61,983 nt of DNA, taken from the IMG/VR virus record IMGVR_UViG_3300045004_000088, positions 192,001 through 253,983 of that record; one strand, 5' to 3'. Position 1 is the stretch's first letter; every line of letters begins with the position of its first letter. Below are positions 1,809 to 4,370 of this stretch, piece by piece. The notes beneath the pieces were generated by a model. That model had not been told where the DNA came from, ran no database searches, and saw nothing but the letters and a program-made list of their open reading frames with translations. The DNA comes from a virus. Both the position numbers and the translations under genes were made by a program.

Positions 1809-1945
1809 ACGGAGATGTCGGTAAGCCGGGCGGTGTTATAGTAGCCGATTGCGGCCTCTGCCGACTGTGTTGGTTCGACTCCAACTGTACCCGCTAACGT
1901 CTCGTTGGTGTAAAAAGGGATAGCTTCCCAAGTAGCCTAGCGTTG

Positions 1946-2040
1946 ACCAGCATGGGAGGGTGGCCAACTCCCCCCGTTGGCGCGACCGCGATTCTCAGCA
2001 CGGCCCACTTGAAGGGCAAGGGCGGGTGAAACCCCCGCAC
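1946..2040. repeat. structured repeat element copy 1 (conserved hairpin GGGAG-N9-CTCCC and shared 5' and 3' blocks)
   Basis: Shares CCAGCAyGGGAGG...CAACTCCCCCCGyyGG...GGGCGGGTG...CCyGCAC with copy 2. Confidence 0.45.
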
Positions 2041-2117
2041 GAGATGTCAAACAACGTCCTGTTAGTGTAGAAGGGGGCTGACTCTCTAAAAGTTGGCCCC
2101 AAGCGACTGACCACCGG

Positions 2118-2212
2118 CCAGCACGGGAGGTGTACAACTCCCCCCGCCGGTAGAAGTTCCGCTGCACAGCCCCTCTGGAGGGGGCAGGGGCGGGTGCGAT
2201 TCCTGCACAGGA
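2118..2212. repeat. structured repeat element copy 2
   Basis: Second copy of the motif described for 1946..2040. Confidence 0.45.
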
Positions 2213-2230
2213 CACTTATTCGGAGCGAAG

Positions 2231-2404
2231 ATGGGCGTCGTCAAACGTTGCGAGATCAAACGACACGAACCCTACACAGGCGACAAGTGTCCCGTTTGTG
2301 CCGACAACGAACAGAACGCCGCCATCACCGGCTTGCTGTGTGCGTGCCTTCTTTTCGCTCTAGGGATCGCAGGGATGGTCATATTGGCTGCGAGGTTGAA
2401 GTAA
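2231..2404 (+). CDS. small zinc-ribbon/membrane protein (57 aa, below the ORF-track cutoff)
   Basis: ATG ORF MGVVKRCEIKRHEPYTGDKCPVCADN... with a C-terminal hydrophobic helix. It ends 2 nt before tRNA-Phe. Confidence 0.3.
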   Translation: MGVVKRCEIKRHEPYTGDKCPVCADNEQNAAITGLLCACLLFALGIAGMVILAARLK

Positions 2405-2406
2405 TT

Positions 2407-2478
2407 GCCGTTCTGGTGTAGGGGTCTGCACAGATGCTTGAAAAGCATCGGGTCTGAGTTCAACTCTCAGGGGCGGCA
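2407..2478 (+). tRNA. tRNA-Phe(GAA)
   Basis: Acceptor GCCGTTC/GGGCGGC (two G-U pairs). D-loop with GG. Anticodon arm GATGC-TTGAAAA-GCATC. T-arm CTGAG-TTCAACT-CTCAG. 72 nt. Confidence 0.8.
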
Positions 2479-2597
2479 CTCGGTCGGATGTCATCAGGGT
2501 TTACACTAACGTGAAAAGGTTCGACTCCTTCCTTCTTCGCGAGAAGAAGAGGTGGCTAATCGGAAGCCACAGAACTTTGACTTTTTGCCGACCAAAT

Positions 2598-2721
2598 GGT
2601 GGGGTAGCTTAATGGTAGAGCGCTAAAAACGTCTCAGCGATTGTTGCCCGCAAGGGATGCCCTGTTGGGATTACATTCCGTGAAAAGGAAGAGGTGCGGT
2701 GTTCAATTCCCGCCCCCACCA
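2598..2721 (+). ncRNA. atypical tRNA-like element: canonical acceptor and D-arm at the 5' end, T-arm and acceptor at the 3' end, about 48-nt insertion
   Basis: 5' GGTGGGG-TA-GCTT-AATGGTA-GAGC. 3' end ...GTTCAATTCC-CGCCCCCACC-A, complementary to the 5' acceptor. Internal GNRA hairpin CCCGCAAGGG and an anticodon-like TTCC-GTGAAAA-GGAA. No canonical 76-90 nt fold found. Confidence 0.3.
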
Positions 2722-2749
2722 CTAGATTTTGTGAAACAAAAAGGAACTC

Positions 2750-2941
2750 ATGAGCTTCTACATCAGAGCCAAAGACACCACCCGATGCGTGATGGTCGAA
2801 ACTCACATCGGTAAGAATGGGAACGTCACTCGCAACGCCAACGACAAAATGCTGTTCGCGACAGAAGACGAGGCGATCCTGTTCATGTCGAAAAATCTCC
2901 CTGACGGAGACGGCTTTGAGTACCAAGCTGTAGAAGCCTGA
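2750..2941 (+). CDS. hypothetical protein (63 aa)
   Basis: RBS AAAGGAAC before the ATG. Confidence 0.45.
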   Translation: MSFYIRAKDTTRCVMVETHIGKNGNVTRNANDKMLFATEDEAILFMSKNLPDGDGFEYQAVEA

Positions 2942-2998
2942 GTCCCGTCGCTTTGAACACGACTCACCTACATACAATACCCACATGTAGGAGGAATC

Positions 2999-3241
2999 AT
3001 GTTCAACGTATGGTCTTACCTGTCCAAGATGAAGAAGGAATTCCCGCTCGGCTGCAAGGTCGAAGTGGATGAAGAAACGATCATGAACTTCTACTGGGAC
3101 TACGGCACGACGAGCCGGGTCGCAAAAGTCATCGACTACGTCCTCGAAGAAGGAATGTTGGTCGTGGTTAACGCGGCCGGACTTGAGTTCTCGGTCTATC
3201 CCGACGAAGTCGAGCCGTACTTCGAGCCACAGGTGTGTTGA
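2999..3241 (+). CDS. hypothetical protein (80 aa)
   Basis: Strong RBS GTAGGAGGAATC before the ATG. Confidence 0.5.
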   Translation: MFNVWSYLSKMKKEFPLGCKVEVDEETIMNFYWDYGTTSRVAKVIDYVLEEGMLVVVNAAGLEFSVYPDEVEPYFEPQVC

Positions 3242-3423
3242 TGAAGTGCCGCAACTGCAACGCGGACGACGCTTGGCCGTGCTGGTGTGAGTTCTGCGAC
3301 AAACAACTCTGCGAGAAGTGCGTCAAAAGCTCAGACTTCGGCCACGTTTGTTCGGATTGCGGCCGGAAAGTTGAAGAGGGCGTAATCGATGACGCCGGTG
3401 TCGAACACAAGGGGAAGTCATGA
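3241..3423 (+). CDS. Cys-rich zinc-finger protein
   Basis: ATGA start/stop overlap with the upstream gene. Four CxxC pairs. Confidence 0.45.
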   Translation: MKCRNCNADDAWPCWCEFCDKQLCEKCVKSSDFGHVCSDCGRKVEEGVIDDAGVEHKGKS

Positions 3424-3836
3424 AGTGCGGATGGTGCGGCAAAGAAGGCGACGAGAAGTTCTGTAATCAAGAACACGCCGACAACAGCGCGGTCCACGTC
3501 GTTCTGAACGAACTGACCGATGAAATGGACATCACCTTCGGCGCGACAACGTTCCCGTGGAAGTGCTGTCTGACGGCGGAAGCCTACGACACGTTGAAGA
3601 ATCGGCCTGGAACGCACTGGGATGCGAATGTCAGGGAGTACGTTCCTCGCAACTTGATTTACGAGAAGGACGGACACGAGTACCTTCGGGCGTGGGAGAA
3701 CCACAACATCCCGTTCATCATCCACATGAGGATCGCGGAGAAGGACGGCGAGTTCATCGCGCGAAATCTGGACGAGTTGAACCGGCCCGACGTACATAAG
3801 GAGTACCACAAGGCGTGGGACGAAACTCCGCTGTAA
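3420..3836 (+). CDS. hypothetical protein with N-terminal CxxC motif (138 aa)
   Basis: ATGA overlap with the upstream gene; continuous operon-like array. Confidence 0.5.
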   Translation: MKCGWCGKEGDEKFCNQEHADNSAVHVVLNELTDEMDITFGATTFPWKCCLTAEAYDTLKNRPGTHWDANVREYVPRNLIYEKDGHEYLRAWENHNIPFIIHMRIAEKDGEFIARNLDELNRPDVHKEYHKAWDETPL

Positions 3837-3844
3837 AGGCCAAG

Positions 3845-4093
3845 ATGATGACATTCGATCAGTTTCTGGAACGGAAGACGGCCGACGACATCCACTGGCC
3901 CGGAGACTGTAGCGTCCGCTCGATTGAACGCAAATCGGAAACCGAGCGGTGTTACATTGAACCGGGCGGGAGTCACGATAAGATCAGAGATAGAGGCACG
4001 CACGAGATCATTTCGATAGTGCCTCGGCACAAGGCGATGAATCCTTACACCTGTAAGTCGATCATCGACAAAGTCAAGAAGGGTTGCTTTTGA
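3845..4093 (+). CDS. hypothetical protein (82 aa)
   Basis: Internal ATG with AAAGG RBS just after the previous stop. Confidence 0.4.
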   Translation: MMTFDQFLERKTADDIHWPGDCSVRSIERKSETERCYIEPGGSHDKIRDRGTHEIISIVPRHKAMNPYTCKSIIDKVKKGCF

Positions 4094-4097
4094 GACT

Positions 4098-4182
4098 GCG
4101 GTTGTGGCGTAACTAGGTAGCCGCGTAGCGTTGAGGGCGCTATCCCTTAATTGGGGTGTGGGTTCGATTCCCACCAACCGCA
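4098..4182 (+). tRNA. tRNA-Leu(GAG), type II
   Basis: Acceptor GCGGTTG/CAACCGC. Anticodon arm TAGCG-TTGAGGG-CGCTA. Long variable arm. T-arm GTGGG-TTCGATT-CCCAC. Confidence 0.8.
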
Positions 4183-4370
4183 CTTGCCGGATGCTAGTAG
4201 GACTACATTGTAAAACTGGTGGCCGAAAGGCCGTCCGGGTGCAAATCCCGGCTCGTCCCGCGAGGGACGTGTGACGGAACAGCAGACGTACCAGTCGGGG
4301 GAAACCCCATGCTGTCTTGCGACTTTTTGCCGGCTCAACACTCACTGGTATACTCATGCTATAATTGGGC

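What the first reader, a model, noticed from the sequence alone, without database searches (positions are those of the whole stretch)
1811..4275. Non-canonical tRNA-like fragments: T-arm plus acceptor-like strand fused to GNRA-tetraloop hairpins
Three loci carry a good T-arm followed by a 7-nt acceptor-like 3' strand, but no complementary 5' acceptor strand, D-arm or anticodon arm. They are 1863-1893 (GTTGG-TTCGACT-CCAAC), 2512-2550 (AAAGG-TTCGACT-CCTTC then CTTCTTC-GCGA-GAAGAAG) and 4215-4272 (GGCC-GAAA-GGCC variable-arm-like hairpin, CCGGG-TGCAAAT-CCCGG, then GTCCC-GCGA-GGGAC). In two of them the acceptor-like strand is part of a perfect GNRA-tetraloop hairpin. They may be 3' tRNA remnants. 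Other options are att-like sites, RNase P/Z processing mimics, or tRNA-like ends of larger structured RNAs.
Basis: seen in the sequence. Interest (0 to 1): 0.6.

Follow-up and report, generated by a model that had tools for sequence, protein, structure and literature searches.

The report
Y-RNA-like tRNA mimics in phage
The three "tRNA fragments" are complete, conserved small-RNA genes in the tRNA array of a huge uncultivated phage: two are circularly permuted tRNA look-alikes built like bacterial Y RNAs (YrlA) but with no Ro60 gene nearby, and one is a full but odd tRNA-shaped RNA.

Summary
The motifs are real and sit at the stated coordinates, but they are not fragments. It is a complete, non-canonical tRNA-shaped RNA. 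Loci 2 (2482-2593) and 3 (4186-4334) each start 2-3 nt after a tRNA. They fold as a terminal helix and internal loop enclosing V arm, T arm, GNRA-capped acceptor-like hairpin and D-like arm. That is the circularly permuted tRNA layout of bacterial Y RNAs (YrlA). They carry the same 5' GYCGGAUG and YUAC motifs as authentic YrlAs beside Ro60 genes.

Orthologues exist in two diverged relatives (L136, L143). For locus 3, 96.8 % of cells pair and 8 pairs change on both sides. In locus 2, substitutions avoid paired positions (p = 1.5e-6).

Strict YrlA membership is not shown. A model trained on 15 authentic YrlAs gives only 23 and 12.5 bits, within false-positive range. D-stem sequences differ from the family consensus. 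No Ro60 gene lies within about 68 kb here or 20 kb in the relative.

Verdict: a new variant of a known kind. Ro60 dependence is unresolved.

The parts
1797..1893 (+). Locus 1: a complete, non-canonical tRNA-shaped RNA. Acceptor stem 1797-1803/1886-1892, discriminator G1893, and a minimal D region ACUGAACGGAGAU with a conserved GG. A long inner arm is closed by helix S1 (1817-1821/1861-1865) and ends in a conserved YAUAGU loop. A 3-nt variable region precedes the canonical T-arm at 1869-1885.
   Evidence: Sequence and coordinates. The orthologue in L136 is present as two tandem copies. Their three different 3' strands (TGTACCC, CTCGCCC, GACACTC) pair with GGGTG[C/T]G at 7/7, 6/7 and 6/7 positions. 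The acceptor helix pairs in 19/21 cells and the T-arm in 15/15. S1 reads GUCGG/CCGAC in the window and UCUGG/CCAGA in L136. Neither ARAGORN nor Rfam calls it.
2407..2479 (+). Canonical tRNA-Phe(GAA). Its 3' end lies 2 nt before locus 2.
   Evidence: ARAGORN and Rfam at 53.3 bits. The same arrangement is seen in L136.
2482..2593 (+). Locus 2: a 112-nt Y-RNA-like, circularly permuted tRNA mimic. P1 2482-2487/2588-2593; 5' motif GUCGGAUG 2483-2490; internal loop AUGUCA/CUUUUUG; P2 2494-2502/2572-2580; UUAC 2501-2504; V hairpin 2504-2513; T-arm 2515-2531; 7-bp acceptor-like hairpin with GCGA loop 2532-2549; D-like arm 2552-2570 with GG in the loop.
   Evidence: The MFE structure equals the centroid, z = -3.64. 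The segment order is the same as in 17 authentic YrlAs. It is the best hit of model R1 in the window, starting exactly at 2483 (31.9 bits; 23.2 bits when scored alone). In the L136 orthologue every pair is kept (100 %, against 37-61 % in slid controls). AS changes U-A to G-C, the loop changes GCGA to GCAA, and the T-stem changes A-U to C-G and A.C to G-C. Substitutions fall at 4/56 paired against 30/65 unpaired columns.
2598..2721 (+). tRNA-like gene with the anticodon arm replaced by a roughly 52-65-nt long stem. Its 5' end lies 4 nt after locus 2. Its D-arm plus GCUAAAAAC resembles the YrlA D region.
   Evidence: Rfam tRNA at 39.2 bits with a 65-nt insertion. R1 borrows its D-arm. In L136 it is 88 % identical, the D-stem changes C-G to U-A, and the anticodon-like loop loses a base.
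4098..4183 (+). Canonical tRNA-Leu(GAG). Its 3' end lies 2 nt before locus 3.
   Evidence: ARAGORN and Rfam at 48.7 bits. The arrangement is conserved in L136.
4186..4334 (+). Locus 3: a 149-nt Y-RNA-like, circularly permuted tRNA mimic. P1 4186-4190/4330-4334; 5' motif GCCGGAUG 4186-4193; possible P1b 4194-4199/4310-4315; CUAC 4203-4206; P2 4215-4220/4290-4295; V hairpin GGCC-GAAA-GGCC 4221-4232; T-arm 4235-4251 (loop UGCAAAU); acceptor-like hairpin 4252-4271 (core GUCCC-GCGA-GGGAC); 3-bp D-like arm 4274-4289; optional hairpin GGGG-GAAA-CCCC 4297-4308; conserved 3' loop GCGACUUUUUG 4319-4329.
   Evidence: z = -2.79. Orthologues are in L136 (91 % identical) and L143 (74 %). 96.8 % of cells pair and 8 pairs change on both sides, in P1, V, T, AS and D; slid controls give 29-43 % pairing and 0-2 double changes. 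The AS loops are GCGA, GUAA and GCAA, all GNRA. The optional hairpin is absent from L143.

Best explanation
Loci 2 and 3 are genes for small non-coding RNAs of the Y-RNA (YrlA) type, that is, circularly permuted tRNA mimics.

Shown:
- Each RNA closes on itself through a terminal helix (P1).
- P1 is followed by a conserved asymmetric internal loop (5' AUG, 3' ...GAYUUUUUG) and a second helix.
- Inside these lie four hairpins in the order V arm, T arm, GNRA-capped acceptor-like stem, D-like arm.
- The 5' end carries GYCGGAUG and a YUAC box. Both sit in the positions where authentic Ro60-associated YrlAs carry GNCGAAN0-1G and YUAY.
- The structure is conserved by compensatory change in three lineages.

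Inferred:
- The RNAs are transcribed with the + strand tRNA array.
- They are cut out by the tRNA-processing machinery. The 3' processing of the upstream tRNA, 2-3 nt away, would make the 5' end. RNase P cleavage at the next tRNA-like gene, 4-6 nt away in locus 2 and in L143, would make the 3' end.
- The stem/internal-loop module docks a Ro60-type ring protein, either host-encoded or encoded elsewhere in this phage genome of at least 476 kb.
- The tRNA-elbow module recruits a tRNA-binding factor. During infection the RNA would therefore work as a tether or gate for RNA quality control or repair, as described for bacterial and phage Ro60-Y RNA-PNPase particles.
- The 7-bp acceptor-like stem of locus 2 could also make it an RNase P substrate, like M. 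smegmatis YrlA.

Locus 1 is a different thing. It is a complete tRNA-shaped RNA with a true acceptor stem and T-arm but a non-decoding body. It is one of at least four such RNAs in the array.
For: Architecture:
- The MFE structure equals the centroid for locus 2.
- A segment-by-segment parse is identical to 17 authentic YrlAs taken from beside Ro60 genes of phages and bacteria.

Motifs:
- GUCGGAUG is the 5' motif of the Streptomyces phage Phredrick YrlAs. GCCGGAUG...CUAC is that of an R. etli YrlA.
- Two of the six GYCGGATG matches in the window lie on the + strand, 32-49 nt upstream of the two T-arms. By my estimate that is about 0.002 per element.

Model:
- R1 was built only from Ro60-adjacent YrlAs. 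It ranks locus 2 first in the window and starts its alignment at the motif.

Conservation and covariation.

Context:
- Ro60-encoding actinophages carry YrlA copies inside their tRNA arrays.

Literature:
- Phage Y-like RNAs bind phage Ro60 and host PNPase (PMC12135203).
- TROVE plus a tRNA-like partner occurs in some jumbo phages (PMC7824862).
Against: - No Ro60/TROVE ORF exists in the window, in 6.5 kb upstream, or in the syntenic 20 kb of L136. The best E-value is 0.65, while held-out Ro60 controls score 1e-186 and 1e-145.
- In IMG/VR, 9 of 12 full-architecture GUCGGAUG-type YrlAs have Ro60 within the captured flank, and none abuts a tRNA.
- R1 scores for the isolated loci are 23.2 and 12.5 bits. 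Authentic YrlAs score 40-90 bits, and plain tRNA-tRNA junctions score up to 36 bits.
- The family-typical D-stem (GCUC/GAGC) and T-stem sequences are not kept.
- Locus 3 has G at T-loop position 55 and no GG in its D loop.
- The 5' motif has G where the published consensus has A.
- There are no expression data.
- Only three lineages (two for locus 2) are available for covariation.
Confidence: 0.55

Rival explanations
1. These are Ro60-independent permuted tRNA mimics. They share the fold, and are possibly derived from YrlA or arose independently from a tandem tRNA duplication. They would act without Ro60 in one of several ways:
- as decoys or sponges for host tRNA-targeting nucleases;
- as mimics of anticodon-nicked tRNA for RNA-repair enzymes;
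- as ligands of a phage tRNA-elbow-binding protein, such as the Trbp111-like tRNA_bind protein encoded in the array (window 954-1298).
For: - No Ro60 lies within about 68 kb here or 20 kb in L136, whereas authentic phage YrlAs sit beside Ro60.
- The D- and T-stem sequences are divergent and model scores are low.
- The array holds several other conserved non-decoding tRNA-shaped RNAs, which suggests a broader tRNA-mimic repertoire.
- A tRNA_bind protein is conserved in the array.
Against: - The Ro-type 5' motif and the YUAC box sit at the right places and are invariant in all orthologues.
- The stem, internal loop, stem module has no obvious role in a pure decoy.
- Most of this genome of at least 476 kb, and the host, remain unseen.
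Confidence: 0.27
2. These are permuted or split tRNA genes that mature into working tRNA-like molecules. RNase P would cut the GNRA loop of the 7-bp acceptor-like stem and CCA would be added. The result would be a two-piece, possibly chargeable RNA.
For: - The AS stem is exactly 7 bp in locus 2 (window and L136) and in the L143 copy of locus 3.
- M. smegmatis YrlA, with a 7-bp AS, is cleaved by RNase P and receives CCA (PMC4201824).
Against: - There is no anticodon arm. The position is taken by the P2/P1 helices carrying the RNA's own ends.
- The AS of locus 3 in the window and in L136 is 5 bp, or 8 bp with a U.U mismatch.
- There is no bulge-helix-bulge motif of the kind seen in algal permuted tRNA genes (from memory).
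Confidence: 0.08
3. These are structural spacers or processing punctuation. The elements would only insulate or present neighbouring tRNAs to RNase P, RNase Z or RNase E, and would then be degraded.
For: - They are flanked by tRNA or tRNA-like genes at 2-6 nt in all three lineages.
- No promoter or terminator signal rises above background.
Against: - Sequence motifs in loops (AUG, YUAC, GAYUUUUUG, the T-loop) are conserved beyond what a spacer needs.
- The full tRNA-elbow architecture is kept by covariation.
- Other tRNAs of the array are processed without such elements.
Confidence: 0.06
4. This is the first reader's main idea: decayed 3' tRNA remnants or att-like integration scars.
For: The T-arm plus a 7-nt strand resembles a tRNA 3' half.
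Against: - The elements are complete and self-closing.
- They are conserved with compensatory changes across lineages at 60-78 % protein identity.
- Substitutions avoid helices.
- Locus 1 has its own 5' acceptor strand.
- The genome is a huge virulent-type phage with T4-like replication genes.
Confidence: 0.02

Closest known systems
YrlA-type bacterial and phage Y RNAs (Chen et al. 2014, PMC4201824; Wang et al. 2018, bioRxiv 10.1101/312249)
   Same: - Circularly permuted tRNA layout. The 5'/3' ends pair, followed by V, T, a loop-closed acceptor-like stem and D.
- A 5' Ro-type motif and a YUAY box in the same positions.
- A canonical UUCGA T-loop and GG in the D-loop (locus 2).
- Occurrence in large phages rich in tRNAs.
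- A tetraloop-capped AS also occurs in authentic copies (for example L228 with GUAA).
   Different: - No Ro60 gene within 4 kb, or indeed within about 68 kb.
- The loci abut tRNA genes at 2-3 nt. Chen et al. filtered such cases out.
- The D-stem is GUGG/CCAC or a 3-bp ACG/CGU, instead of the near-invariant GCUC/GAGC.
- Locus 3 has a UGCRAAU T-loop and no GG in its D-loop.
- The motif is GYCGGAUG rather than GNCGAA.
- The family model gives only 12-23 bits.
Phage Ro60-Y RNA particles (Thermus phage phiLo Yrl1/Yrl2, PMC12135203; mycobacteriophage Bxz1 gp220 with its upstream YrlA)
   Same: [quoted passage not shown] The proposed role is hijacking host RNA decay or repair.
   Different: Those RNAs lie immediately upstream of the phage Ro60 gene. 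No Ro60 gene is in view here.
Circularly permuted tRNA genes of Cyanidioschyzon merolae and some archaea (from memory: Soma et al. 2007)
   Same: The 3' half (T-arm plus acceptor 3' strand) precedes the 5' half (acceptor 5' strand plus D-arm), joined by a short linker.
   Different: Those genes mature via a circular intermediate into normal decoding tRNAs and have an anticodon arm and bulge-helix-bulge ends. Here there is no anticodon loop and the ends form a long helix with a conserved internal loop.
tmRNA and viral tRNA-like structures
   Same: tRNA mimicry based on a T-arm and an acceptor stem.
   Different: Those have a free, chargeable CCA end. ARAGORN finds no tmRNA, no tag reading frame is present, and loci 2 and 3 have a closed acceptor stem.

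Membership tests
YrlA / bacterial Y RNA | Conserved motif GNCGAAN0-1G near the 5' end (presumed Ro60 contact) | tested here: met
   The loci carry GUCGGAUG (2483-2490) and GCCGGAUG (4186-4193), which have G in place of the second-to-last A of the consensus. The same variants occur in authentic Ro60-adjacent YrlAs of Streptomyces phage Phredrick and R. etli. The motif is invariant in the L136 and L143 orthologues. It is not enriched in the window overall.
YrlA / bacterial Y RNA | Stem-loops in the order V, T, AS (loop-closed), D, enclosed by pairing of the 5' and 3' regions | tested here: met
   Shown by the folds, by a parse identical to 17 authentic YrlAs, and by covariation in P1, V, T, AS and D of locus 3. 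Every pair of locus 2 is kept in L136.
YrlA / bacterial Y RNA | Conserved YUAY at the start of the V region | tested here: met
   UUAC at 2501-2504 and CUAC at 4203-4206. L136 has UUAC and CUAC, and L143 has UUAC.
YrlA / bacterial Y RNA | tRNA elbow nucleotides (T-loop UUCRA, GG in the D-loop) and near-invariant T- and D-stem sequences | tested here: inconclusive
   Locus 2 has T-loop UUCGACU and GG in its D-loop, both conserved in L136, but its D-stem is GUGG/CCAC rather than GCUC/GAGC. Locus 3 has T-loop UGCRAAU (G at position 55), no GG in the D-loop and a 3-bp D-stem.
YrlA / bacterial Y RNA | Encoded within 4 kb of a Ro60 (TROVE) gene on the same strand | tested here: not met
   tblastn and a 9-member Ro60 profile HMM find nothing in the window, L001, L136, L143 or L137. 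The best E-value is 0.65, and positive controls score 1e-186 and 1e-145. Pfam finds no TROVE domain on 20 ORFs. The rest of this genome of at least 476 kb could not be read.
YrlA / bacterial Y RNA | Significant score against a covariance model of the family, above false positives | tested here: not met
   With R1, locus 2 alone scores 23.2 bits and locus 3 alone 12.5 bits. Authentic YrlAs score 40-90 bits, an unseen authentic copy scores 60.6 bits, and tRNA-tRNA junctions score up to 36 bits. Rfam 15 returned no Y-RNA-type hit.
YrlA / bacterial Y RNA | Binds Ro60/Rsr; modified by TruB and DusA | not testable with these tools
   This needs biochemistry.
Canonical tRNA | Cloverleaf with an anticodon arm, detected by tRNA models | tested here: not met
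   ARAGORN finds nothing, by default or with relaxed and intron settings. Rfam RF00005 finds nothing at the three loci, at the gathering threshold or at E <= 10. Locus 1 has acceptor and T arms but no 5-bp/7-nt anticodon arm.
Permuted tRNA genes (algal/archaeal type) | 3' half upstream of 5' half AND an anticodon loop that can be reconstituted, with bulge-helix-bulge ends | tested here: not met
   The topology is met. However, the ends form the P1/P2 helices with a conserved internal loop, and neither an anticodon loop nor a BHB motif is present.
tmRNA | tRNA-like domain plus a tag reading frame | tested here: not met
   ARAGORN in tmRNA mode finds none.
tRNA-derived att site or remnant | Identity to a host tRNA 3' end at a prophage border, with an integrase nearby | not tested
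   The host is unknown. No integrase appeared among the ORFs scanned. Conservation with covariation argues against decay.

The most novel reading that the evidence does not exclude
Huge phages carry, inside their tRNA arrays, a Ro60-independent repertoire of engineered tRNA look-alikes. These would include permuted (Y-like) forms, un-permuted forms with the anticodon arm replaced, and D-loop-expanded forms. The cell's own tRNA-processing enzymes would release them. They would act as decoys or adaptors against tRNA-directed host defences or for RNA repair. Loci 2 and 3 would then be the first Y-RNA-fold RNAs working without a Ro60 partner.
Probability: 0.2. Interest if true: 0.7.

Novelty: new variant of a known kind. 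Interest (0 to 1): 0.45.

Why it matters
Y RNAs are known as partners of Ro60 and have been found by searching next to Ro60 genes. Published screens deliberately discarded candidates that overlap tRNA clusters or lie far from Ro60.

These loci show that RNAs with the same fold and the same 5' motif exist inside the tRNA array of a phage of at least 476 kb, with no Ro60 gene in about 68 kb. They are conserved by covariation.

There are two possibilities. Phage Y RNAs may work with a distant or host Ro60, which would widen the known distribution of the system and the way to search for it. Alternatively, the Y-RNA fold may have a Ro60-independent use.

The same array also holds four other conserved tRNA-shaped RNAs that standard tRNA finders miss or mis-call. 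This is relevant to how tRNA content of huge phages is counted and interpreted.

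Tried and rejected
1. Rfam at E <= 10 over positions 1-8000 gave nothing at the loci.
2. DNA pattern scans built from the shared motifs returned only chance matches or nothing. These covered IMG/VR, the JGI metagenome collection and GTDB genomes.
3. A search for relatives of the 138-aa neighbour protein in IMG/VR found none.
4. blastn and tblastn against 50,697 phage records found no close relative. 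Only tRNA matches appeared, RecA was at most 29 % identical, and the 175-aa protein had no match.
5. My loose descriptor statistic (motif plus T-arm plus hairpin) was not significant, with a mean of 1.6 hits in shuffles, and I dropped it.
6. The other contigs of the same phage (L001-L005) are 100 % identical and carry no information.
7. L137-L142 encode homologues of the 138-aa protein but are not syntenic and have no array. A GCCGGATG match in L138 is chance.
8. A Ro60 profile search of the 5.8-billion-protein database lists only the best 120 of about 8,000 hits. It could not be used to place Ro60 on this phage's contigs.
9. An alternative closing helix for locus 1, CG[G]AGAUG/CGUCUCG, was rejected. 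It is not available for the first L136 copy, and it overlaps the acceptor strand of the next element.
10. Reading the anticodon-like loops of elements A, B and 2598-2721 as real anticodons was rejected. The loops change (ACUUGAA to ACACGAA) or lose a base between relatives.
11. A five-sequence joint alignment of loci 2 and 3 was misaligned by MAFFT and was not used for counts.

Full report
**What the window is.** The 62-kb window is part of a huge phage. It encodes gp32-like, UvsX/RecA-like, DnaB-like and PolA proteins, MetRS, a HisRS fragment, RRF, CsrA, a methionine aminopeptidase and HNH nucleases. It is identical to the last 62 kb of JGI contig Ga0438297_000076 (140,679 bp). A protein encoded in the region also occurs, unchanged, on a 475,914-bp contig. 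No sequenced phage is close: RecA is at most 29 % identical.

The finding lies in a + strand tRNA array. The array runs from about 4.5 kb upstream of the window to position 6480. It is dominated by tRNA-Leu, -Ser, -Tyr and -Phe.

**Checking the observation.** ARAGORN (default, relaxed, intron-tolerant and tmRNA modes) calls nothing at the three loci. Rfam 15 also calls nothing there, at the gathering threshold or at E <= 10.

Locus 1 has a complementary 5' acceptor strand (GGGUGCG, 1797-1803). In loci 2 and 3 the '5' strand' is the 3' half of the tetraloop hairpin and is followed by a D-like arm.

**Anatomy of loci 2 and 3.** Locus 2 (2482-2593) folds with MFE equal to centroid and z = -3.64. 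Its parts, from outside to inside, are:
- a 6-bp terminal helix, P1 (GGUCGG/CCGACC);
- an internal loop (AUGUCA/CUUUUUG);
- a 9-bp helix, P2;
- four hairpins in order: a short V arm, a T-arm with the canonical loop UUCGACU, a 7-bp hairpin closed by GCGA, and a D-like arm with GG in its loop.

Locus 3 (4186-4334, z = -2.79) has the same plan. It has an extra 5' segment, a 6-bp P2 (ACUGGU/ACCAGU) and an additional GGGG-GAAA-CCCC hairpin. Both loci begin 2-3 nt after a canonical tRNA (tRNA-Phe and tRNA-Leu). They share 5' G(U/C)CGGAUG and 3' GACUUUUUGCCG. This layout is a tRNA opened at the anticodon stem and closed at the acceptor end.

**Comparison with authentic Y RNAs.** Chen et al. (PMC4201824) define YrlA by four features:
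- a 5' GNCGAAN0-1G motif;
- YUAY at the start of the V region;
- V, T, AS and D stem-loops;
- a position within 4 kb of Ro60.

Wang et al. [quoted passage not shown]

I located authentic YrlAs beside Ro60 genes in these genomes:
- mycobacteriophages Bxz1 and Myrna;
- Gordonia phage Sixama;
- Microbacterium phage Pumpernickel;
- Streptomyces phages Persimmon and Phredrick;
- Nonomuraea, Bosea, Rhizobium and Picosynechococcus.

A segment parse puts locus 2 in exactly the same architecture as all of them. The Phredrick copies begin GGGUCGGAUG...GUUAUC, and an R. etli copy begins GCCGGAUG...CUAC. These are the same motif variants as loci 2 and 3. In these actinophages the Ro60 gene and several Y-like RNAs sit inside the tRNA array.

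**A model-based membership test.** I built covariance model R1 from 15 Ro60-adjacent YrlAs only. It ranks locus 2 first in the window (31.9 bits) and starts its alignment exactly at the 5' motif. However, it reaches that score by borrowing the more canonical D-arm of the next tRNA-like gene. That is the tandem-tRNA artefact Chen et al. warn about.

| Sequence class | R1 score (bits) |
|---|---|
| Locus 2 scored alone | 23.2 |
| Locus 3 scored alone | 12.5 |
| Seed YrlAs | 40-90 |
| Unseen authentic YrlA (L128) | 60.6 |
| Divergent extra copies in Ro60 phages | 22-31 |
| Plain tRNA-tRNA junctions | up to 36 |

The model score therefore cannot establish membership.

**Conservation and covariation.** Homologues of the 138-aa protein encoded between the loci led to two informative contigs. 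L136 (78 % protein identity) is fully syntenic and has orthologues of every RNA element. L143 (60 %) has a diverged locus 3.

For locus 3, 96.8 % of cells pair. Eight pairs change on both sides, spread over P1, V, T, AS and D. Controls with the partner strand slid by 1-3 columns give 29-43 % pairing and 0-2 double changes. The AS stem is GUCCC/GGGAC, GAUCC/GGAUC and CCUCUUC/GAAGGGG in the three lineages. Its loop is always GNRA (GCGA, GUAA, GCAA). The AUG, YUAC and UUUUUG segments do not change.

For locus 2, every pair is kept in L136 despite 23 % divergence. Compensatory changes occur in the AS stem and the T-stem. Substitutions fall at 4 of 56 paired columns against 30 of 65 unpaired columns (Fisher p = 1.5e-6).

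These are therefore functional structured RNAs, not remnants.

**The Ro60 criterion.** The following searches found no TROVE protein in the window, the 6.5 kb upstream, the 20-kb syntenic locus L136, L143 or L137:
- Pfam on 20 ORFs;
- tblastn with Bxz1 Ro60;
- a profile HMM of nine diverse Ro60s run against every ORF.

Ro60 genes held out of the profile score 1e-186 and 1e-145. The rest of the genome could not be read, and a database search could not be targeted to this phage.

As a yardstick, I scanned IMG/VR for GUCGGAUG followed by a T-loop, which gave 113 matches:
- 55 lie inside ordinary tRNAs;
- 12 have the full Y-like architecture;
- 9 of those 12 have Ro60 in the captured flank;
- none of the 12 abuts a tRNA.

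Authentic phage YrlAs thus sit beside Ro60, and the window's loci are atypical in that respect.

**Locus 1 and the rest of the array.** Locus 1 (1797-1893) has these parts:
- a 7-bp acceptor stem;
- a short D region with a conserved GG;
- a long inner arm ending in a conserved YAUAGU loop;
- a 3-nt variable region;
- a canonical T-arm.

L136 has two tandem copies. The three 3' strands differ (UGUACCC, CUCGCCC, GACACUC), yet each pairs with its 5' strand: 19 of 21 cells pair, and the T-arm pairs in 15 of 15. The helix closing the inner arm is GUCGG/CCGAC in the window and UCUGG/CCAGA in L136. It is a complete but non-decoding tRNA-shaped RNA.

Three more such RNAs lie between the loci: elements A (1899-2046) and B (2056-2214), and the Rfam-called 'tRNA' at 2598-2721. 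In the last one, the anticodon arm is replaced by a long stem. All three are 88-95 % identical in L136, keep their helices through substitutions, and do not keep their anticodon-like loops.

**How it most likely works.**

Shown: the fold, the motifs and their conservation.

Inferred:
- The RNAs are co-transcribed with the array. No promoter or terminator signal rises above background.
- They are released by 3' processing of the upstream tRNA and by RNase P cleavage at the downstream tRNA-like gene. In L143 the element is flanked on both sides at 6 nt or less.
- The P1, internal loop, P2 module with GYCGGAUG is the counterpart of the Ro60-binding module.
- The V/T/AS/D module mimics the tRNA elbow and acceptor arm and recruits a tRNA-binding factor, as proposed for YrlA and shown for a phage Ro60-Yrl-PNPase complex.

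I give 0.55 to this Y-RNA reading, and less, about 0.3-0.35, to actual Ro60 binding. I give 0.27 to a Ro60-independent tRNA-mimic role. The remaining rivals (split tRNA, mere processing spacer, remnant or att site) get the rest.

**Verdict.** The best filing is a new variant of a known kind (YrlA-type Y RNA). It meets four of the family's defining features: the motif, the YUAY box, the order of the arms and the closed acceptor stem. It fails two: Ro60 adjacency and the family-model score.

Noticed in passing
window 1899-2046 and 2056-2214: Two paralogous tRNA-shaped RNAs of 148 and 159 nt (elements A and B). Each has a 7-bp acceptor stem (GUCUCGU/ACGAGAU and GUCCUGU/ACAGGAC, which covary with each other). 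Each has a T-arm with an unusual loop (UGAAACC in A, UGCGAUU in B; UGCGACC and UGCAAUU in L136). An insertion of about 85 nt lies between the presumed D-stem strands GUGU...GCAC. They are 95 % and 92 % identical in L136, which is more conserved than the canonical tRNAs (86-91 %). The anticodon-like loop of A changes ACUUGAA to ACACGAA. No tool calls them.
   Followed up: partly
window 2598-2721: Rfam calls this a tRNA (39 bits), but the anticodon arm is replaced by a long stem of 9 bp plus a CCC-GCAA-GGG tip. That is followed by GGGAUUAC and a V-like hairpin. Its D-arm plus GCUAAAAAC is almost identical to the D region of the Gordonia phage Sixama YrlA. It looks like the un-permuted counterpart of locus 2. 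It also shares the stretch GGG(U/A)UUACA...CGUGAAAAGG with locus 2.
   Followed up: partly
L136 7862-7958 and 7963-8059; L143 945-1024: The relative L136 has locus 1 as a tandem duplicate with a diverged inner arm. L143 has an extra, uncalled tRNA-like element of about 80 nt (T-arm GUGG-UUCAAUU-CCAC, acceptor UGCUUC/GAAGCA) between tRNA-Leu(AAG) and its locus 3 copy.
   Followed up: no
L001 2040 to window 6480: The array is almost entirely long-variable-arm tRNAs (Leu x8, Ser x4, Tyr) plus two tRNA-Phe. Three consecutive 175-aa ORFs, at least one of them HNH-like, are each paired with a tRNA-Leu. With relaxed settings ARAGORN adds candidates at 268-356 and 625-707.
   Followed up: no
window 954-1298 (L001 7535-7879; L136 6979-7353): A small protein with a tRNA_bind domain (PF01588, Trbp111/EMAPII-like) is encoded inside the array and is conserved in L136. 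It is a candidate partner for the tRNA-shaped RNAs, but only by position.
   Followed up: no
window 6356-7015: A 219-aa ORF inside the array gives a weak, partial match to the T4 major capsid protein Gp23 (profile positions 201-311 of 376). It is conserved as a Gp23 (faint/weak) gene in L001 and L136. A capsid-protein fragment in a tRNA array is unexpected.
   Followed up: no
L129 3124-3210; L130 2156-2262 and 2301-2382; L127 7110-7215; L126 3708-3790: Ro60-encoding actinophages carry extra, divergent Y-like copies (5' motif, GUUAUC and T-arm, often without a D-arm) interleaved with their tRNAs. These score only 22-31 bits with the YrlA model, so phage Y-like RNAs are more numerous and varied than one per Ro60 gene.
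   Followed up: partly
IMG/VR loci L146-L257: The combination GTCGGATG ... GGTTCGANTCC is a frequent D-loop/T-loop pair in ordinary phage tRNAs (55 of 113 matches). The Ro-type 5' motif of Y RNAs thus resembles a tRNA D-loop sequence. This fits a tRNA origin of Y RNAs, and it is also a trap for motif searches.
   Followed up: partly
window 4194-4199, 4283-4288 and 4310-4315: In locus 3 the segment UGCUGU (4310-4315) can pair with the 5' CUAGUA (ACAGCA in L136) or with ACAGCA in the D-like loop (CUAGCA in L136). The two partners have swapped sequences between the two phages. This could be an alternative-pairing switch or a coincidence.
   Followed up: no
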